A DNA stretch of 30,737 nt, from positions 1-30,737 of the IMG/VR virus record IMGVR_UViG_3300035670_000933; one strand, written 5' to 3'. Below are positions 6,117 through 29,083 of this stretch, piece after piece. This DNA comes from a virus. Its lineage: Duplodnaviria > Caudoviricetes. Every line of letters starts with the position of its first letter. Positions within the stretch are counted from its first letter, which is position 1. The translations under genes and the position numbers were made by a program. The notes under the pieces were generated by a model. It saw only the letters and a list, made by a program, of their open reading frames with translations, was not told the DNA's origin and made no database searches.

Positions 6117-6315
6117 AGTCGTTCGCGTGACCTTCTAAATGACGGTCTAGTTTTTCGTCTACCCGAATAATTGACCTGTGGATAAAACGAAGATTCTCTA
6201 CAACCGTTGCGTGGTCTTCGCGGTTCTCCTTCCTGAACTGTTGTAAAACGACTCCTAAGAGTCCTCCTACCGTCGTAATAACAGCCACAATGATAGCCGC
6301 CTGCTCCGCGCTCAT
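6091..6315 (-). CDS. Small membrane protein of the lysis cassette
   Basis: One N-terminal TM helix followed by a coiled coil ending KLDRHLEGH; immediately after the endolysin. Confidence 0.7.
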   Translation of the reverse strand: MSAEQAAIIVAVITTVGGLLGVVLQQFRKENREDHATVVENLRFIHRSIIRVDEKLDRHLEGHANDYGKVSREG

Positions 6316-6321
6316 AGCGGA

Positions 6322-6831
6322 TTACTCCGAATCGGCGTCGTTCGGGAACATCTTCCTAAACGCCTCGCGAATAGCCTTCGGATTATCGGCAACGGCTGGA
6401 GAGAGTTCTACGTGAATCCAGTCGCCATTTGGCGCTCCCGTAATCGTCGGCTTCTTATAGTTCTCCCACGTGCCTCTATCGCAACGCCAGCCGCGTCCGA
6501 AAGGAGCCACCCAATAATCCAGAATTAGTTCGATTCCTAGAGCCTCCGCATTAGACGGAATAGTTAAGAGGTCGAGCCACTCGCTCGCTATCTTGCGTCC
6601 GTTCGGAACTCCTTTATTAGCCATTTTTCTATAAGAGAGGTCTACCGCTCTTCCCGTTGCGTGAACACTCATAGAGTCTTTACCGCGCTTAGGACGATTC
6701 GCGAACGTACCGTTATCCCAAAGAGCACGATTAGAACGCCGTTCGATTTGATTAACGAACGCTATAAGTCCTAGACGAGCCGCGTTCGTAGGACTAATAC
6801 CGTCCGCAATACCTGTATATTTACGAGCCAT
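6322..6831 (-). CDS. Endolysin, peptidase M15-like (LAS) zinc peptidase
   Basis: R...SVHATGRAVD and DWIHVE motifs (SxH-x6-D...HxE/H). Confidence 0.8.
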   Translation of the reverse strand: MARKYTGIADGISPTNAARLGLIAFVNQIERRSNRALWDNGTFANRPKRGKDSMSVHATGRAVDLSYRKMANKGVPNGRKIASEWLDLLTIPSNAEALGIELILDYWVAPFGRGWRCDRGTWENYKKPTITGAPNGDWIHVELSPAVADNPKAIREAFRKMFPNDADSE

Positions 6832-7091
6832 TACGACTTCTTTCGCGCCTTCGAAGGAGCAGTATCGCGAAGCGCAAACGCGTTGTCGATTTCTTCCTTC
6901 GTAAGTTTCCCGTCAATAGAAGCCTTAGCCAATTTCTCTACGACGCTAGCAACGGCGACGAAGCCAGCGAGAGCGGCAGACTTCCAAACTTCGAGTTCAG
7001 GCGCGATAATCGCGCTACCCGTAATAATTCCAAGAGCACTCGAAACGAATAGCGCCGCGATTCTGCCAACGATATCTTTCCACTTATTCAT
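6831..7091 (-). CDS. Putative holin
   Basis: Two hydrophobic helices and a basic C-terminus; coupled to the endolysin (TAATG). Confidence 0.65.
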   Translation of the reverse strand: MNKWKDIVGRIAALFVSSALGIITGSAIIAPELEVWKSAALAGFVAVASVVEKLAKASIDGKLTKEEIDNAFALRDTAPSKARKKS

Positions 7092-7251
7092 CAGAGCCTC
7101 CGTCTAGGTAAGTCATTACTACGTGAAATGATATCGCAAGCGCCGTAATCCAGATACCTAAAGTCCGCGTAGAACCTGAAAGGGTAATTAAGACGAGTCC
7201 TGTTCCTGCCCATACCCAGACGTTCTCAGTTAAATAGTTAAGCCATTTCAT
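7084..7251 (-). CDS. Small two-TM membrane protein (55 aa, not in ORF track)
   Basis: MKWLNYLTENVWVWAGTGLVLITLSGSTRTLGIWITALAISFHVVMTYLDGGSDE; TAATG-coupled to the upstream gene. Confidence 0.7.
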   Translation of the reverse strand: MKWLNYLTENVWVWAGTGLVLITLSGSTRTLGIWITALAISFHVVMTYLDGGSDE

Positions 7252-8198
7252 TAGTGTCGCCTTCGAGGAGCAGGAAGAGGTGTCACAAAGAATACAGCAG
7301 ATACCGCGACGACGGTACGCCGTTCCGCTACAGAAATAGTCGAGCCTGAAGGAACGTAATCGTCATAGCCGCCGCTAAATACGTTTACTTCTTCTTCGAA
7401 CTTCTGCTTCTCTTCTACAGGTGCGTCTAGTGCTGGAGCGAAAAGAGTCGTAGACGTTTCGAGAAAGAGCGACGTCGAAGGAATCTCTTCGAGAATCGTA
7501 GACGTCTGGATACTCGTAGTCGTCTCGCTAATCGTCGTCGTAGTGCTCGTCGTAGTTCGAGGAGGAATCGTCGTAGGAGCGCTCGTAGACGTCTCTAAGA
7601 GGCTTATAGAGGTCGTAGAAGCAGGTTCGGTAGTAGTCGTAGTAGTAGTAGTAGTAGGCGGCTCTGTAGTCGTCGTAGGAGCCTCTGTAGTAGGCGAAGG
7701 AGGCACTTCCGTAGTCGTAGTAGCAGGCGGCGGAGCCTGAGTCGTCGTAGTGCTCGACGTCGTAGACGCGACCTCTGTAGTCGTAGAGGCAGGAGCCTGA
7801 GTCGTCGTAGGTGGCTCCGTAGTCGTAGGTGGCTCCGTAGTCGTCGTAGTCGTTTCTTCCGTCGTCGTAGACGCCTCTACTGTGGTAGTCGTTTCGCTAA
7901 CAGTCGTCGTAGAAGGCGGAACCGTAGTCGTAGTAGTGCTCGAAGTCGTCGTAGTTACTGACGCGCCGTAACTCCACGTATACGGCTCGCTAGGAGCACC
8001 GTTACGCCACGCCTCACAGTCGCTCCACGTAGGCATAAGACCAGCCTCGTAATCCGCTAACGGCTGTAACATCTGCCAATTCGTAGACGAATCTACGTAG
8101 CAAGTCCACGTGTTATACGACGCTTCCGCTTTCGCAGGAGCCGCTAACGCTAAAACGGCGGCAGGAAGAAAAACTATCGAACCGCTCCGCCATTTCAT
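7251..8198 (-). CDS. Secreted/membrane-anchored Thr/Pro/Ser-rich (mucin-like) protein
   Basis: Signal peptide (AAPAKA), small 2-Cys domain, about 165-aa poly-Thr stalk, C-terminal hydrophobic stretch followed by RRRH. Confidence 0.8.
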   Translation of the reverse strand: MKWRSGSIVFLPAAVLALAAPAKAEASYNTWTCYVDSSTNWQMLQPLADYEAGLMPTWSDCEAWRNGAPSEPYTWSYGASVTTTTSSTTTTTVPPSTTTVSETTTTVEASTTTEETTTTTTEPPTTTEPPTTTQAPASTTTEVASTTSSTTTTQAPPPATTTTEVPPSPTTEAPTTTTEPPTTTTTTTTTEPASTTSISLLETSTSAPTTIPPRTTTSTTTTISETTTSIQTSTILEEIPSTSLFLETSTTLFAPALDAPVEEKQKFEEEVNVFSGGYDDYVPSGSTISVAERRTVVAVSAVFFVTPLPAPRRRH

Positions 8199-8218
8199 AG
8201 CGGAAAGAATACTTCTAA

Positions 8219-8431
8219 TTACTCGTCTTCAGGCTTTAATTCTGGTGGAGGAGGCGGCTGTATTACGACTCCGTTCTTTACTTCCCAACCGATTCCAGCA
8301 GGATTTAAAGCGTCGTACTCAAGAAGGTGTTCTGGGTCGTCGTTAATCCACTCAAAGGCTTTTACGGAGATATTTACTACGATTCCGTCAGTCGTATTAG
8401 GTTCACACCACGCAACTAATCGTTCGCTCAT
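8219..8431 (-). CDS. Small tail-fibre-associated hypothetical protein
   Basis: ATG at 8431 overlaps the upstream stop (ATGA); AGIGW...PPPPP pattern typical after Gly-rich tail genes. Confidence 0.65.
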   Translation of the reverse strand: MSERLVAWCEPNTTDGIVVNISVKAFEWINDDPEHLLEYDALNPAGIGWEVKNGVVIQPPPPPELKPEDE

Positions 8432-8919
8432 AATCCTGCTCCTACGGGCTGAAGGTACTCTATCCATACGTATCCACTGCCGCCTGCCGCGCCGCTAGTT
8501 CCAGCCGCCGCGCCTGCTCCAACCGTAATCGAGATACCAGTTCCAGCCGTTACTGCTCCACCAGCCACAATTTCACTTCCAGCCGCCGCAAAAAACTGTC
8601 CTTCACTTCCTGCTCCGTTAGTTCCGTAAGTCATACCACCCTGACCACTATTCGTCGCACCTGTAACGTGGTAATTAGTTTCGATATATCGAATTCTCAT
8701 ACCTCCGCCGCCAGTAGCGCTAATAGTTCCACTCGCAAATGCGACAGAACTCGTTCCTCCAGTTGCCCACGACGCGGTTCCCGTACTACCGCCGCCAGCC
8801 CTGATATGCGCTATCGCGTACGTAACTCCTGCTGGCGGTGTAAAAGTTCCGTCAGCAGTAAATACCGTAACTCGTTTTTCATAACGGAAACCGCTTATAT
8901 ATCCGCTATCTCTACTCAC
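8428..8919 (-). CDS. Glycine-rich minor tail protein
   Basis: FTADGTFTPPAGVT...GGG...ITVGAG...GGSGYVWIEY glycine-rich domain. Confidence 0.75.
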   Translation of the reverse strand: MSRDSGYISGFRYEKRVTVFTADGTFTPPAGVTYAIAHIRAGGGSTGTASWATGGTSSVAFASGTISATGGGGMRIRYIETNYHVTGATNSGQGGMTYGTNGAGSEGQFFAAAGSEIVAGGAVTAGTGISITVGAGAAAGTSGAAGGSGYVWIEYLQPVGAGL

Positions 8920-9278
8920 GCTGAAATCCTATTCACGTAGCCGCCGATAAGAATTACGTTCGCGGAAGCGGCGAACGCTCGAACTACGAGCGGCGTCGCG
9001 TTTCCCTTTAGAACTAATCCAGCGATAACGGTAACTAAACCGCTCTCAGGAAGAACCGTTAATTCGATAAGGTCATCAGGCGAGGACGTTCCACCCCACT
9101 CAATAGTAAGTTTTCTCGCAGTCGTATCGGAGTTCACCGCATAAAGCCAAATCTCGTCGAACGTAGTCGCGGTAGCGCTACCAGTATGGATAGTCGTTCC
9201 AGCAGTAGCAGTAGCCGCGACTTTAATAAGTTTCCCGTCAGTCGAACCGCTAAGAATCTGTTTACTAAACGTCGCCAT
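8916..9278 (-). CDS. Putative minor tail/virion protein
   Basis: Beta-rich 120-aa ORF in the tail module. Confidence 0.6.
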   Translation of the reverse strand: MATFSKQILSGSTDGKLIKVAATATAGTTIHTGSATATTFDEIWLYAVNSDTTARKLTIEWGGTSSPDDLIELTVLPESGLVTVIAGLVLKGNATPLVVRAFAASANVILIGGYVNRISA

Positions 9279-25265: not shown

Positions 25266-25762
25266 TACGTCGTCGAGCCGCTCCACTCGTAGCCGCACTT
25301 CGGACATTTATGTTCGGTAGCCAAATCGGTATCGACGGTAGGGAACGCGTCAGGAATTTCGTTTTCGATATCGGAAATAATCTCGTCGAGAGCGTCGCCG
25401 TCGAAGAGCGTTCCTGAAAGTTCGAGGGGAGTAGCGGCGAGTTCTTCTAGAATCTCTTTAAGAACGTTTGAGTCGTAAGTAGCGAGGTCGTTAGCGCGGT
25501 TATCTGCGAGCAGGATACGAAGCGCTCTATCGTCGTCGCAGTCGATATAGCCCACTTCGATATCGTTCCAGCCAAGAAGTTTCGCGGCTTTAAACGTATG
25601 ATTCCCTGCGAGAATAAAGTTCGTTCCCTGCTGAACGACGAGCGGACGATACTGACCGTTCTCGCGGAGGCTTTCGCTAATCGCGCCTACGTCTCCCTGA
25701 CGAGCGTTCTTAGGGTGAGGCTTTAAGTCGTCTACGGATACTCGTTCGTATCTAATTTCCAC
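25265..25762 (-). CDS. ParB/Srx-like domain protein with C-terminal Zn ribbon
   Basis: LKPHPKNAR, ILAGNH, LADNR, HKCPKCGYEW. Confidence 0.88.
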   Translation of the reverse strand: MEIRYERVSVDDLKPHPKNARQGDVGAISESLRENGQYRPLVVQQGTNFILAGNHTFKAAKLLGWNDIEVGYIDCDDDRALRILLADNRANDLATYDSNVLKEILEELAATPLELSGTLFDGDALDEIISDIENEIPDAFPTVDTDLATEHKCPKCGYEWSGSTT

Positions 25763-25803
25763 TTCTCGCTCCTTCGATAGGAGCGAAATGGTATCAGACT
25801 TTT

Positions 25804-25853
25804 AGCCTCTTCAGTAGCGGCACTACCGCTAGACGCCTCGCGGCGTTTCGGCT
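25804..25853 (-). ncRNA. Type II hammerhead ribozyme (downstream copy)
   Basis: AGCC GAAA CGCC-GCGA-GGCG UC UAGCGG-UAGUG-CCGCUA CUGAAGA GGCU: complete core and three stems; predicted cut after the C at 25832. Confidence 0.93.
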
Positions 25854-25858
25854 TCTGC

Positions 25859-26008
25859 TTACTTTAAGCGGCAGGCGATAAGGAACTTCTCGCGGTCAAA
25901 ACGCGGATTATCGTCCTCGAAGATATCCATAAGCGTTTCGATAAGAACGATAATGTCCGTTCCCTCTGAAATCGCCTTCGCTATTTTCTCGTAGTGCTTC
26001 CTAGTCAT
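25859..26008 (-). CDS. 49-aa phage protein between the two hammerheads
   Basis: MTRKHYEKIAKAI...DNPRFDREKFLIACRLK; GAGGAGG RBS before ATG at 26008. Confidence 0.85.
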   Translation of the reverse strand: MTRKHYEKIAKAISEGTDIIVLIETLMDIFEDDNPRFDREKFLIACRLK

Positions 26009-26033
26009 ATTTCCTCCTCTTAGATTTCCGACG

Positions 26034-26083
26034 AGCCTCGTCAGGAGCGGCGATACCGCTCGACGCCTTGCGGCGTTTCGGCT
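26034..26083 (-). ncRNA. Type II hammerhead ribozyme (upstream copy)
   Basis: AGCC GAAA CGCC-GCAA-GGCG UC GAGCGG-UAUCG-CCGCUC CUGACGA GGCU; predicted cut after the C at 26062; compensatory change relative to the other copy. Confidence 0.93.
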
Positions 26084-26640
26084 TAATACTTTCCTGTACC
26101 TCCGCAACGGTTACACGTCCAGCCCGTGAAATTCCATTTATCTGAACCGCCAGCGCCTCCGCAACGAGGACATTTATCCTCGTCCTTCCACGTCTGGAGA
26201 GATTCGCGGCGAAGGCGAGCGTCGGTACGACGAGTCAGTTCGTTACGGACGTCCGTAATCTGCTCCCACGTCATTTCGTTAAGAGCGATATCGGCTCCGA
26301 CAACTTTCCGAATTACTGCTTCGAGCGAACGAACGCGAGCCTCTTCCGCCGCCGCGACGAGTCCGCCGTTTACGAGGTCGAGACGAACCTTCTCGCGAAC
26401 GGTAGCGAGTTCCTCCGCCTCGTGCTTCTTCTCTTCCGCGAAAACGGCGGTGGCACTTTCGAATGAGAATCCGAAACGCTTATTAAATTCGTTAAGACAG
26501 TAGAAGGTACGTCCGCTCGCGTCGTTCATCTGCTTCCATACAGGTTCGGAGCAGAATACGTAGCCGCCGTCGTAGAAGCCTTCGCCTGCCTCGACGCTGA
26601 CGGAGCATACGGAGCACGTTCCGCGATATCGGTTATTCAT
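26083..26640 (-). CDS. Hypothetical protein with N-terminal Cys cluster and C-terminal DnaJ-like CxxCxGxG finger
   Basis: NRYRGTCSVC...GEG; CPRCGGAG...CNRCGGTG; GGAGG RBS. Confidence 0.8.
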   Translation of the reverse strand: MNNRYRGTCSVCSVSVEAGEGFYDGGYVFCSEPVWKQMNDASGRTFYCLNEFNKRFGFSFESATAVFAEEKKHEAEELATVREKVRLDLVNGGLVAAAEEARVRSLEAVIRKVVGADIALNEMTWEQITDVRNELTRRTDARLRRESLQTWKDEDKCPRCGGAGGSDKWNFTGWTCNRCGGTGKY

Positions 26641-26669
26641 AGGTTCCTCCTCGTTAATTCGTTAAGACG

Positions 26670-26699
26670 AGTCTACGGTGGCTCCCGTAGGCGAGTCCA
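26670..26699 (-). promoter_or_regulatory. Putative SigA-type promoter
   Basis: TGGACT-N18-TAGACT in an intergenic gap about 30 nt upstream of ATG 26640. Confidence 0.55.
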
Positions 26700-26729
26700 G
26701 AACCTCTTTTCACCCGTAAATAGCCTGTT

Positions 26730-27197
26730 TTAGTCGTATACGGGATTCGTAAGTAGGTCGAAAACGTCCGCCGCCTCTAGAAGCCAGCCGCGAGAAGGAT
26801 TATCGGAGTGAGCCGCGAAAATCTTCTTCGTCGTCGCATTAAAGCGCTCCGAATTCTTTCGGAGATATCTCTTTAGACGTCCTACTTCGATAGCGACGAA
26901 CGCGCCTGATTCTCCTTCGAGCGCATAAACGTAAATCCACCATTTAGCCGTCGTGACGTTAATTCCAGAAGGCTTCCAGACGGATTCGTTTAAATCGAGT
27001 TCCTGAAGTGCTCGCATAGGCGCTTGGTGCGTCTCGATTACCATACGTCCGTTGCGGTATCTATCCGTTTTAACTTCGAACGCGCCGCAAGAGAGCGCTC
27101 GAAGGAAAGCAGTAACGAACGCTTCGCCTTCTTCGCCGTCTTTTAGGTCACGGACGAAATTAAAGCGCTCTAAATCGAACGACGGCTGATAAGCCAC
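26730..27197 (-). CDS. Putative PD-(D/E)xK nuclease-fold protein
   Basis: DL..GEEGE...FEVKTD...IE...PSGI.VT.AKWW pattern. Confidence 0.65.
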   Translation of the reverse strand: MAYQPSFDLERFNFVRDLKDGEEGEAFVTAFLRALSCGAFEVKTDRYRNGRMVIETHQAPMRALQELDLNESVWKPSGINVTTAKWWIYVYALEGESGAFVAIEVGRLKRYLRKNSERFNATTKKIFAAHSDNPSRGWLLEAADVFDLLTNPVYD

Positions 27198-28081: not shown

Positions 28082-29083
28082 CTAGCGGAAATTGGCGAGA
28101 ACTTTAAGCGCTTCGATATCTGCCGCGCCTGTTTTACCTGTTAGAGCGTCAAGGTAGTTACGCTCCGCGAGTACGGTTCCTCCGCGAGTAGGACGGAAGT
28201 GGTGACGGTAGGTGTTTACCGCTTGGAGCACTCCGTACGCCGTTCCCTTCCAAGGTGTTACGCGCTCGTCGTTCGTCCAGAGGTTGCGGAGAATCGAACG
28301 AGTGTTTTCGGCTCGCGTAATCGCCTGTAGAGCGTCTTTCTCAGGAGTAGGAACGTACTTCGCTACGAATTTCTCGTACTGCTTATCCGTTACTTTCTGC
28401 GAAAGGAGCGCTTCGAGTTCACGCTGAAAGTCGTCCGCCATAGTGTGAACGACGTTAAGAGCGGTTCTCGCGTCCTGTAGACGGAGCGACGAGTTAGCCG
28501 TATGTCGAACGGTATACGCCTCGCCGTCTTCTCGAAGTGCCGCGTCTCGCGTGTTATCGCAGACGACGATAGTTACCGTCCGCTTATACGTCGTCGCAAT
28601 ACTTCCGTTAAACGAGGTCGTCGCGAGAAGGTTAGGACGGAACTCTACGCCGCCTGCTCCTTTCACGTTCTCTGGCATTTCGACCTGAACGAAGGCGATA
28701 GCGCCGCCTTTCAGGACGCCTGCGGAGCCAATAGAAAGGTCGTCGTCGAGAATATTCGAGACAGCACCTAGAAGAACGTCGTCGTACTGGTGCGGCGCGT
28801 ATCGGCTCGACGGAACTCCTAACACTTCGTAGGAGTCGTCGCGGATAATCGCCTTACGGTTCGGAACTTCGACGTATCCGTTCGGAGACTTTACGTACAT
28901 TGTCTCCTCTACTGCTTTCCACGAGAAGAGGCGTCGTCGGACGTCTTCGAGCGGAATCGCGCCGTCGTAGTGATTCGGTTCTTCGCTCTGGAGGTCAGCG
29001 CGATAGTGCCAAGCGTTACCGCGCTTCTCCGTAAAGCCGATAAGCATATTTTTATTCAGGTAGTCGAGAGTTTCGCGACTCAT
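28082..29083 (-). CDS. DUF932 family phage/plasmid protein
   Basis: AWH, AIIRDD...LGV.S..Y..HQ, SAGVLKGG, LLATTSFNGS, VVCDNT, RHT, GTAYGVLQAV. Confidence 0.88.
   Translation of the reverse strand: MSRETLDYLNKNMLIGFTEKRGNAWHYRADLQSEEPNHYDGAIPLEDVRRRLFSWKAVEETMYVKSPNGYVEVPNRKAIIRDDSYEVLGVPSSRYAPHQYDDVLLGAVSNILDDDLSIGSAGVLKGGAIAFVQVEMPENVKGAGGVEFRPNLLATTSFNGSIATTYKRTVTIVVCDNTRDAALREDGEAYTVRHTANSSLRLQDARTALNVVHTMADDFQRELEALLSQKVTDKQYEKFVAKYVPTPEKDALQAITRAENTRSILRNLWTNDERVTPWKGTAYGVLQAVNTYRHHFRPTRGGTVLAERNYLDALTGKTGAADIEALKVLANFR

What the first reader, a model, noticed from the sequence alone, without database searches (positions are those of the whole stretch)
25804..26083. Two hammerhead ribozymes bracket one gene: a self-excising, potentially self-circularising 230-nt mRNA
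Seen: two 50-nt sense-strand type II hammerheads (26083-26034 and 25853-25804), each with intact GAAA, GUC and CUGANGA core. The differences between them preserve function: GCAA vs GCGA GNRA loop, a G-C vs U-A compensatory pair at the base of stem I, CUGACGA vs CUGAAGA at the free position, and changes at the stem I apex. The predicted cuts (after 26062 and 25832) release exactly 230 nt holding a GAGGAGG RBS and a complete 49-aa ORF. Established: hammerheads leave 5'-OH and 2',3'-cyclic phosphate ends that can be re-ligated by the ribozyme or by RtcB, and tandem copies generate circles in viroids and retrozymes. Inference: because these are type II, the excised piece begins with stemI-CUGACGA-GGCU and ends with AGCC-GAAA-stemIII-GUC. 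Its two ends therefore rebuild a chimeric hammerhead with the whole gene as loop II, positioned to ligate into an exonuclease-resistant circular mRNA. Cleavage would also separate the upstream gene from the downstream modification/packaging genes.
Basis: partly seen in the sequence, partly recalled or inferred. Interest (0 to 1): 0.95.

Follow-up and report, generated by a model that had tools for sequence, protein, structure and literature searches.

The report
Self-locking hammerhead ribozymes punctuating phage genes
Two hammerhead RNA motifs bracket a tiny phage gene and likely cut its message into a hairpin-capped linear piece, a layout known since 2011; what looks new is that the first motif, like many other phage hammerheads, has a conserved tail predicted to fold back over its own catalytic core, while the proposed circular mRNA has no direct support.

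Summary
Observation confirmed: two type II hammerheads (26083-26034, 25853-25804, minus strand) would release 230 nt holding an RBS and a real 49-aa phage gene. The layout is known: Perreault 2011 described clustered hammerheads flanking prophage genes, proposed circles and detected none. This scan has also reported it repeatedly on other DNA. Relatives carry a third copy about 4.8 kb upstream. Circularisation is unsupported: no RNA data cover the cassette, the chimeric fold is minor (P about 0.05), 39 of 167 neighbouring pairs elsewhere cannot rebuild it, and the proposed junction also occurs in the genome. Best reading: cleavage gives linear mRNA pieces capped by a hairpin at each end. New here: these belong to a compact subclass without the loop I pseudoknot, scoring below Rfam's cut-off. 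Copy 1's tail can pair with its own catalytic core (7 bp, 4.7 kcal/mol better than the ribozyme fold in a secondary-structure model). In other phages this 'lock' covaries with the free core base (67 of 71 Watson-Crick, p about 1e-15) and occurs in 39 of 154 unselected compact copies against 8 expected. My searches found no description. It is likely a post-cleavage ratchet, possibly a switch.

The parts
26670..26699 (-). Promoter-like motif (TGGAC, 18-19 nt, TAnnnT) before the Zn-finger gene; the likely start of the transcript that holds both ribozymes
   Evidence: Only match of this pattern in the window; the same motif precedes the gene upstream of the third copy in G002 and G004 and the replacement gene in G004. 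The sigma70 scan found 0 sites. Promoter function is inferred; likeness to actinobacterial housekeeping promoters is recalled.
26083..26640 (-). 185-aa ORF with a C-terminal CxxCxGxG-type zinc finger; its stop codon TAA overlaps the first base of stem II of copy 1
   Evidence: phrog_30451, unknown function. Replaced by an unrelated 105-aa gene in G004, whose stop overlaps stem II in the same way.
26034..26083 (-). Type II hammerhead, copy 1 (HHR-B); predicted cut after 26062; U at stem I position 1.7 and A just 5' of stem II
   Evidence: conserved in 4 of 4 close relatives.
26028..26044 (-). 'Lock' (anti-core) hairpin: core CUGACGA paired with stem II's last base plus the tail (7 bp, loop GGC); mutually exclusive with the active fold
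   Evidence: Minimum-energy fold once the tail is included; kept in G004 by two one-sided changes and present in the third copy of G002 and G004; family covariation.
26013..26019 (-). Shine-Dalgarno GAGGAGG of the 49-aa gene
   Evidence: Sequence.
25859..26008 (-). 49-aa ORF; three-helix protein of a widespread unnamed phage family (consensus MTRKHY...DNPRFD..FL.ACG)
   Evidence: 350 clusters at E<=0.001; no Pfam family; model pLDDT 91.8; no solved structure at E<=0.001 or Z>=5.
25804..25853 (-). Type II hammerhead, copy 2 (HHR-C); predicted cut after 25832; no lock; stem II can extend by 4 bp past a 5-nt bulge
25832..26061 (-). Predicted 230-nt released RNA: 5'-OH, stem I hairpin, lock hairpin, RBS, ORF, stem III hairpin, 2',3'-cyclic phosphate
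   Evidence: length, folds; end chemistry from established hammerhead mechanism (PMC8782182).
25750..25800 (-). Strong hairpin that buries the RBS and GTG start (25762) of the ParB-like gene; a TGnTAnnaT extended -10-like motif (25796-25788) lies in its 5' arm
   Evidence: z = -6.1, 0 of 200 shuffles as stable; the tail is nearly invariant in 4 of 4 genomes; motif; ParB-like phrog_723.

Best explanation
The two motifs are compact type II hammerhead ribozymes that likely cut an early phage transcript between genes, which would leave a linear 230-nt single-gene mRNA protected by a hairpin at each end rather than a circle. In a type II ribozyme the cut lies between two closed hairpins, so the upstream piece would end in stem III plus a cyclic phosphate and the downstream piece would start with a 5'-OH and stem I; both end types are poor nuclease substrates (inferred from T4 RegB/PNK data). 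In copy 1 the ribozyme is complete six bases before its tail is made, so it would fold first. The tail then pairs with the CUGACGA core and strips stem II. I read this lock as a ratchet: after the cut it would release the upstream piece, block re-ligation and leave two stacked hairpins in front of the RBS; transcripts that lock before cutting would stay uncut, so processing may be partial. Copy 2 has no lock and would give the early message a defined 3' end, while read-through into the ParB/methylase/packaging genes would be muted by the RBS-burying hairpin. Shown: sequence, conservation, covariation, gene-boundary position. Inferred: cleavage, folding order, stability effects.
For: Position: of 186 type II motifs with enough flank, 171 have an upstream ORF stop within 40 nt and 148 an RBS plus start within 60 nt downstream, against 60 and 11 on the opposite strand (pattern-selected set, exact duplicates removed only). 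All three copies in G002 and G004 sit this way. Many copies have no detected partner: 27 of 61 locked and 22 of 70 unlocked compact copies have no other hammerhead within 2.4 kb on either side, so one ribozyme at a gene boundary is the basic unit. Lock: 39 of 154 unselected compact copies have >=5 bp against a shuffle mean of 8.3, maximum 18. The free core base N7 covaries with its partner: U-A 32, C-G 35, U-G 3, C-A 1 of 71 (Fisher p 1e-15); both pair types occur in 5 of 8 stem II classes and within 2 single loci. The lock is not tied to a downstream partner (27 of 61 against 34 of 70) and is symmetric in neighbouring pairs (11 upstream only, 11 downstream only, of 85). Folding: stem II probability 0.98 when the RNA ends at 26034 and 0.003 when it ends at 26028. 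Literature: clustered prophage hammerheads cleave in vitro and in E. coli (PMC3088659); phage-linked type II hammerheads cleave in vivo in Desulfovibrio (PMC8782182); 5'-OH and 3'-phosphate ends slow decay in T4 infection (PMC3014915).
Against: No cleavage or expression data exist for this locus. The folding model puts the lock 4.7 kcal/mol below the ribozyme fold in copy 1 (family median 2.2), so copy 1 may rarely cut unless tertiary contacts, which the model ignores, hold it. Copy 2 is the best fold only locally; its stem II probability drops to 0.26 with 10 more bases and its full fold has P 0.035-0.12 in longer contexts. In glmS, ribozyme cleavage leads to decay, not stability (PMC6765202). 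Neighbouring copies keep the open stem more alike than the closed ones, which plain linear processing does not require. The cargo family mostly does without hammerheads (75 of 80).
Confidence: 0.5

Rival explanations
1. The lock is a regulatory switch acting before cleavage. Copy 1 is off by default once its tail is made, and cuts only if polymerase pauses or a factor holds the active fold. A ribosome ending at the upstream stop codon, which overlaps stem II, would melt the ribozyme and let the lock close, coupling cleavage to whether the upstream gene is being translated.
For: Lock favoured by 4.7 kcal/mol within six bases of completion. The upstream stop ends within 8 nt of, or inside, stem II in 98 of 113 locked copies, overlapping it in 45. 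The overlap is kept when the upstream gene is replaced in G004. The family's lock is only about 2 kcal/mol more stable than stem II, as a balanced switch would be.
Against: Unlocked copies show nearly the same stop proximity (165 of 201), which compact phage genomes could give anyway. No ligand-binding element or factor was found. The same pairing is explained by post-cleavage product release.
Confidence: 0.22
2. The ribozyme copies matter mainly as DNA repeats: recombination at or within them adds, drops and swaps small early genes, and cleavage only makes each module's 5' end independent of its neighbour. The pair around the 49-aa gene is then a by-product of module duplication.
For: Genes change at the ribozyme borders: the gene before copy 1 differs in G004, with identity to the window starting at 26085, and the gene right after the third copy differs between G002 and G004. 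G004's copy 2 combines a copy-1-like core and stem base with the copy-2 tail. The open stem is the best-kept part between neighbours in type II arrays (retention 0.61-0.65 against 0.29-0.37 for stem I; 85 pairs, 50 loci) and in type I arrays (stem I 0.70-1.0; 17 pairs, 8 loci), as crossovers inside the motif would require.
Against: The 49-aa cassette is present in 4 of 4 close relatives; no empty site was found. The repeats are only 51 nt at 88% identity. This does not explain the lock. Hairpin-closed stems may simply mutate faster as units.
Confidence: 0.13
3. One reading: the released piece rebuilds a chimeric hammerhead, ligates (itself or through host RtcB) and persists as a circular mRNA. 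The lock would then trap the circle in a non-cleaving fold, as alternative folds do in viroid-like RNAs (recalled).
For: All three copies share stem II, and the chimera would keep the U1.7/A contact. The chimeric fold has P 0.046 in the linear piece but 0.001 in the circle, so a circle once made would resist re-cleavage. In this phage group the two copies that head a released piece carry the lock and the last copy does not. Open stems are preferentially kept alike; circle-only compatibility 19 against skip-only 11 (p = 0.2). Full-length hammerheads ligate 2000-fold faster than minimal ones (PMC6155905).
Against: Perreault 2011 detected no circles or spliced products. The spacer does not favour end-joining (0.046 against shuffled median 0.10); folding as a circle costs about 4 kcal/mol in the model. 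39 of 167 neighbouring pairs are not circle-compatible. Across phages the lock is independent of a downstream partner. No RNA ligase among the 34 proteins scanned (not every ORF, and about 1.1 kb is missing).
Confidence: 0.1
4. The motifs are not active ribozymes, or the tail-core complementarity is a DNA dyad (operator) or a mutational by-product rather than an RNA fold.
For: Below Rfam's gathering score. The lock is a short inverted repeat in DNA. 4 of 18 consensus-conforming hammerheads were inactive in Perreault 2011.
Against: Core invariant and 100% pairing with double-sided changes in all three stems over 34 sequences, themselves chosen by a pairing descriptor. Single deviations in the lock are G-U type 11 times and A-C type 2 times (p = 0.02; 5 against 2 without the position tied to stem II).
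Confidence: 0.05

Closest known systems
Clustered hammerhead ribozymes flanking single genes or gene blocks in prophages (Perreault et al. 2011, PMC3088659: Clostridium scindens, Azorhizobium caulinodans, Agrobacterium tumefaciens ardA locus)
   Same: Two or three same-strand hammerheads at gene borders in a phage; variable small genes between them; mRNA processing proposed; circles and splicing proposed and not detected.
   Different: Their type II consensus uses a loop I-tail pseudoknot. These copies lack it, have U1.7 and an A before stem II instead, and copy 1 has a tail complementary to its own core. I found no such feature in the passages and Discussion part read; the supplementary alignments were not opened.
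Rfam Hammerhead_II (RF02276)
   Same: Type II permutation, same core, same stem order; it is the best Rfam match to copy 1.
   Different: 19.7 bits against a gathering score of 37; copy 2 not listed; no pseudoknot (>=4 Watson-Crick pairs in 7 of 128 compact against 36 of 76 other type II motifs).
Minimal enhanced hammerheads with a U1.7 to loop II A Hoogsteen contact (O'Rourke et al. 2015, seen only as cited in bioRxiv 10.1101/2022.04.26.489422)
   Same: U at position 1.7 in 113 of 128 compact motifs and A at the place equivalent to the last loop II base in 107 of 128, 151 of 151 in a second set.
   Different: Here stem II is open, so the A comes from the upstream flank, often the stop codon. 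The contact is inferred from conservation only, and the cited preprint found U7 not essential in its own construct.
Retrozymes and viroid-like circular RNAs with hammerheads (PMC6155905; search listings of PMC4918200, PMC7229834)
   Same: Tandem same-polarity hammerheads could release a unit-length RNA with ligatable ends.
   Different: DNA phage operon, protein-coding spacer, 4-bp open stem, no opposite-strand ribozyme, no long terminal repeats beyond the 51-nt motif, no circle shown.
T4 RBS-sequestering hairpins with an internal late promoter (genes e, soc, 49, I-TevI; PMC3014915)
   Same: A hairpin buries the RBS and start of the next gene, with a promoter-like motif in its 5' arm.
   Different: Here it follows a ribozyme; promoter activity is untested and the motif is an extended -10 type, not the T4 late box.

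Membership tests
Hammerhead ribozyme, type II permutation | Conserved core CUGANGA, GAAA, UH with no mispair next to the core | tested here: met
   Both copies; core invariant in 34 of 34 aligned compact motifs.
Hammerhead ribozyme, type II permutation | Three stems, I and III closed by loops, II open | tested here: met
   Minimum-energy fold of both 51-mers; 100% of cells paired, double-sided changes in 3 of 4, 3 of 5 and 5 of 6 pairs (sequences were chosen by a pairing descriptor).
Hammerhead ribozyme, type II permutation | Site-specific self-cleavage after N17 | not testable with these tools
   No RNA run covers the cassette.
Hammerhead ribozyme, type II permutation | Stem I-stem II tertiary contact | tested here: inconclusive
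   U1.7 and the A before stem II are conserved, which fits a Hoogsteen contact; not shown structurally.
Rfam Hammerhead_II (RF02276) / pseudoknotted type II consensus | Score at or above the gathering threshold (37 bits) | tested here: not met
   19.7 bits for copy 1; copy 2 not listed.
Rfam Hammerhead_II (RF02276) / pseudoknotted type II consensus | Pseudoknot of 4 or more pairs between loop I and the 3' tail | tested here: not met
   Absent in both copies by inspection; 7 of 128 compact motifs reach 4 pairs.
Clustered phage/prophage hammerheads (Perreault 2011) | Several same-strand hammerheads flanking single genes or short blocks in a phage genome | tested here: met
   Two in the window, three in G002 and G004; terminase, portal, head and tail genes present.
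Clustered phage/prophage hammerheads (Perreault 2011) | Identity of the flanked genes not constant | tested here: met
   Genes beside copy 1 and the third copy differ between relatives; cargo homologues bracketed in 2 of 80 loci.
Retrozymes / viroid-like circular RNAs | Covalently closed circular RNA accumulates | not testable with these tools
   No usable RNA data.
Retrozymes / viroid-like circular RNAs | Non-coding centre between long terminal repeats (retrozymes) | tested here: not met
   The spacer encodes a conserved 49-aa protein; the repeat is only the 51-nt motif.
Retrozymes / viroid-like circular RNAs | Ribozymes in both polarities (viroid-like replicons) | tested here: not met
   No hammerhead of type I, II or III on the + strand of the window; other ribozyme classes gave no Rfam hit.

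The most novel reading that the evidence does not exclude
Phages carry a widespread, apparently undescribed class of self-locking hammerheads: a tail that pairs with the catalytic core decides whether the cut happens, in a race with transcription and with the ribosome stopping on stem II, making the hammerhead a natural gene-control switch; in the extreme form the same lock traps a ligated 230-nt circular mRNA (that part about 0.1).
Probability: 0.3. Interest if true: 0.8.

Novelty: new variant of a known kind. Interest (0 to 1): 0.5.

Why it matters
[quoted passage not shown] The bracketing itself adds only one more example. The lock adds a testable handle: a covarying helix that is incompatible with catalysis must be kept for something that happens before the cut (control), after it (irreversible release, 5' protection) or after ligation (circle trapping), and a few tail mutants in one in vitro transcription experiment separate these. 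The compact subclass also escapes Rfam's threshold; about 1,600 stored stretches of IMG/VR match one compact pattern (estimate), so phage hammerheads are likely under-annotated. If circles were shown, it would be a natural circular mRNA made by a DNA phage.

Tried and rejected
RNA evidence: no RNA holder was listed for 25500-26900; the one small-share run offered had no contig over the cassette and no joints. Neither result bears on expression or circles. Loop I-tail pseudoknot: absent. A 7-base match between loop I of copy 1 and the tail of copy 2 was considered and dropped: loop and tail come from the same copy in any chimera, and that tail is better explained by the hairpin and promoter-like motif. 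Lock as a circle-specific trap: rejected as a general rule. Direction of stem II compatibility: 19 against 11, not significant. Empty site lacking the 49-aa cassette: none among the 4 contigs with the copy 2 tail. Cultured phage with this motif: only a chance 31-nt match in a tail gene; the lock pattern in GTDB genomes gave 13 matches, all metagenome-assembled, with 5 lock-pattern copies passing my type II descriptor, so no cultured model was found. Cargo function: no Pfam family, no solved relative, no fold match at Z>=5; the Atlas gave unnamed viral clusters; the weak phrog_2922 hit was not followed. Sigma70 promoter and terminator scans gave nothing above chance. Other ribozyme classes beside cargo homologues: none in 20 of the 80 loci scanned with Rfam. 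Literature on the lock: searches, term look-ups in PMC3088659 and PMC10085705, and two look-ups of earlier scan notes found no description; the library lacks most subscription journals and I did not open Perreault's supplementary alignments, so prior description is not excluded.

Full report
Observation. The minus strand holds two 50-nt motifs at 26083-26034 (copy 1, HHR-B) and 25853-25804 (copy 2, HHR-C). Each has a 4-bp open stem II, GAAA, a GNRA-capped stem III, GUC, a 17-nt stem I hairpin and CUGANGA. They are the only hammerheads of any permutation that my descriptor finds in the window. Sixty dinucleotide shuffles gave 1 loose and 0 strict hits. The cuts after 26062 and 25832 would release 230 nt with the RBS and the 49-aa ORF. 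Rfam misses both: no hit at E<=1 in the whole window and 19.7 bits against a gathering score of 37 for copy 1.

Context. The window is a tailed dsDNA phage contig with all listed genes on the minus strand: replication initiator, RecE-like exonuclease, tape measure, head, portal and terminase genes, DUF932, a ParB-like gene and two methyltransferases. The host is unknown. Four close relatives keep both motifs. The two near-complete ones, G002 and G004, have a third copy about 4.8 kb upstream. A G002 locus maps to both the end and the start of the window with about 1.1 kb between, and the third copy lies in that gap, so this phage probably has it too. A promoter-like motif stands one gene upstream of copy 1 and one gene upstream of the third copy (function inferred). 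The unit is therefore promoter, one gene, ribozyme, further genes. The gene before copy 1 is a zinc-finger ORF in the window, G002 and G003 and an unrelated 105-aa ORF in G004; both stop codons overlap stem II. The gene after the third copy also differs between G002 and G004. After copy 2 a hairpin (z -6.1, 0 of 200 shuffles) buries the RBS and start of the ParB-like gene, with an extended -10-like motif in its 5' arm, the layout that silences T4 late genes on early transcripts (PMC3014915, passages).

Cargo. The 49-aa protein is real and common: 350 clusters at E<=0.001, a confident three-helix model (pLDDT 91.8), no family name and no solved relative. Of 80 viral loci with a homologue, 2 (the close relatives) are bracketed, 3 have one hammerhead nearby and 75 have none within 1.5 kb by my scan; of the 37 more distant loci, 4 had one. 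The protein does not depend on this arrangement.

Prior art. Perreault et al. 2011 (PMC3088659; passages; Discussion part 1 of 2; supplements not opened) reported several hammerheads flanking single genes or gene blocks in prophages, showed cleavage of three such arrays in vitro and one in E. coli, proposed processing into single-gene mRNAs, raised spliced or circular products and could not detect them (data not shown). Phage-linked type II hammerheads cleave in vivo in Desulfovibrio vulgaris (PMC8782182; passages and section 7 part 1). Reviews call the role of these ribozymes open (PMC6765202; PMC6155905; passages). Earlier notes of this scan report the same layout in at least 23 genomes.

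Family survey. Pattern scans of viral and metagenome contigs gave several hundred motifs; these sets are pattern-selected and cover only part of each collection. Of 186 type II motifs with enough flank, 171 follow an ORF stop within 40 nt and 148 precede an RBS and start within 60 nt; the opposite strand gives 60 and 11. Of 204 type II motifs, 128 have the 17-nt stem I seen here; 113 of these have U at position 1.7, 107 have A just 5' of stem II, and only 7 can form 4 loop I-tail pairs, against 36 of the other 76. This fits a U1.7-A Hoogsteen contact in place of the pseudoknot (O'Rourke 2015, seen only as cited in bioRxiv 10.1101/2022.04.26.489422, which found U7 not essential in its own construct); the contact is inferred. 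In 34 aligned compact motifs all three stems are fully paired with many double-sided changes, though the set was chosen for pairing.

The lock. With its tail, copy 1 folds differently: the core CUGACGA pairs with the last base of stem II and the next six bases, a 7-bp hairpin that excludes the active fold (-28.0 against -23.3 kcal/mol; stem II probability 0.98 for an RNA ending at 26034, 0.003 at 26028). G004 keeps it through two one-sided changes, the third copies have it, and copy 2 does not. It is a family trait. In a first set 15 of 85 compact motifs had 5 or more such pairs against a shuffle mean of 4.0; in an unselected set 39 of 154 against 8.3, maximum 18 in 1000 shuffles (15 of the 39 use the stem II arm itself). 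A scan that fixed four tail bases but left core position N7 and its partner free gave, after removing near-duplicates (109 to 71), U-A 32, C-G 35, U-G 3 and C-A 1 (Fisher p 1e-15); motifs without the tail show no such link. This count is not corrected for relatedness, but both pair types occur in 5 of 8 stem II classes and side by side in 2 loci. Among 249 unselected motifs 23 are perfect and 16 have one deviation over six positions, against 0 and 3 in a window 20 nt away; deviations are G-U type 11 times and A-C type twice (p 0.02; 5 against 2 without the position tied to stem II), mild support for RNA over DNA pairing. The family median advantage of the lock is 2.2 kcal/mol (113 motifs); the model ignores core and tertiary energy.

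Testing the circle. For: all copies share stem II; the chimera would keep the U1.7-A contact; the chimeric fold is 40 times rarer in the circle (0.001) than in the linear piece (0.046), so a circle would resist re-cleavage; in this phage group only the copies that head a released piece are locked; and neighbouring copies keep the open stem more alike than closed stems, in type II arrays (0.61-0.65 against 0.29-0.37 for stem I and about 0.4 for the variable stem III positions; 85 pairs, 50 loci) and in type I arrays (stem I 0.70-1.0; 17 pairs, 8 loci). Against: the spacer does not favour end-joining (0.046 against a shuffled median of 0.10); 39 of 167 neighbouring pairs cannot form the circle-direction stem II, and the 19 to 11 excess of circle-only over skip-only compatibility is not significant; the lock is no commoner before a downstream partner (27 of 61 against 34 of 70 within 2.4 kb; 7 of 11 against 12 of 27 within 5 kb, too few to judge) and is symmetric in neighbouring pairs (11 and 11 of 85); 27 of 61 locked copies have no detected neighbour within 2.4 kb (other ribozyme classes were not counted); and the published test was negative. 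Retention of the open stem is equally predicted by DNA crossovers between copies and by faster joint mutation of hairpin arms. The proposed junction is also the uncut sequence of copy 1, so it cannot serve as a marker. No RNA data could be brought to bear.

Mechanism. I commit to linear processing (0.5). The cut falls between two closed hairpins, so each product gets a structured end with a 5'-OH or a cyclic phosphate; T4 data show such ends slow decay until a kinase/phosphatase converts them, though glmS cleavage leads to decay. The lock would act as a ratchet in copy 1, stripping stem II, blocking re-ligation and stacking a second hairpin before the RBS; some transcripts may lock before cutting. 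Copy 2 would end the early message, with read-through muted by the RBS hairpin; its fold is only locally the best. Rivals: the lock as a pre-cleavage switch coupled to the ribosome stopping on stem II (0.22; stop within 8 nt in 98 of 113 locked but also 165 of 201 unlocked motifs); repeats as recombination joints (0.13); circular mRNA (0.1); inactive motif or DNA dyad (0.05). These are not fully exclusive.

Verdict. The finding as written is a correct observation of a known arrangement with an unsupported circular-mRNA reading. It works like the clustered prophage hammerheads and belongs to that group; it is not a member of the pseudoknotted Rfam family or of the retrozymes. The compact, core-locking form is a new variant as far as my searches reach; subscription journals and supplementary alignments were not seen. 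Interest 0.5, carried by the lock.

Noticed in passing
window end 30737 / start 1; L003 (G002 6197-9215): The contig is a circularly permuted, nearly complete genome lacking about 1.1 kb between its end and its start; in G002 that stretch holds the third hammerhead, a 113-aa ORF and a promoter-like motif.
   Followed up: yes
window 26699-26641 (-); G002 and G004 equivalents (L436, L180): A repeated early module head: A/T tract, TGGAC-N18-19-TAnnnT promoter-like motif, short leader that can form a small hairpin in G002/G004, and a GAGGAGG RBS; two near-identical copies in G004.
   Followed up: partly
window 25796-25788 and 15513-15505 (-): The only two matches on the minus strand to a TGnTAnnaT-type pattern share the form TGRTAYCAT; a candidate late-promoter motif.
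   Followed up: no
L055, L005/L006, L451-L453, L430-L433: Large arrays of 6 to 8 type II hammerheads, one per small gene, in other phage contigs.
   Followed up: partly
L016, L017, L021, L022, L064, L069, L080: Arrays of type I hammerheads whose open stem I is almost the same in all copies while stems II and III diverge; with 6-7 bp open stems these are better candidates for re-ligation or circles than the present pair.
   Followed up: partly
L085 and L118: Two type II hammerheads only 69 nt apart, with no room for a gene between them.
   Followed up: no
L129 (G003), copy 1: Cleavage triplet GUA instead of GUC, an allowed variant; 9 of 318 compact motifs have A at this position.
   Followed up: no
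window 7251-8198 (-), repeats at 7440-7960: Thr/Pro-rich tandem-repeat ORF without a PHROG hit at 1e-5, downstream of the tail genes.
   Followed up: no
window 28082-29083 (-): DUF932 gene inside the block between the third hammerhead and copy 1, kept in G002 and G004.
   Followed up: no
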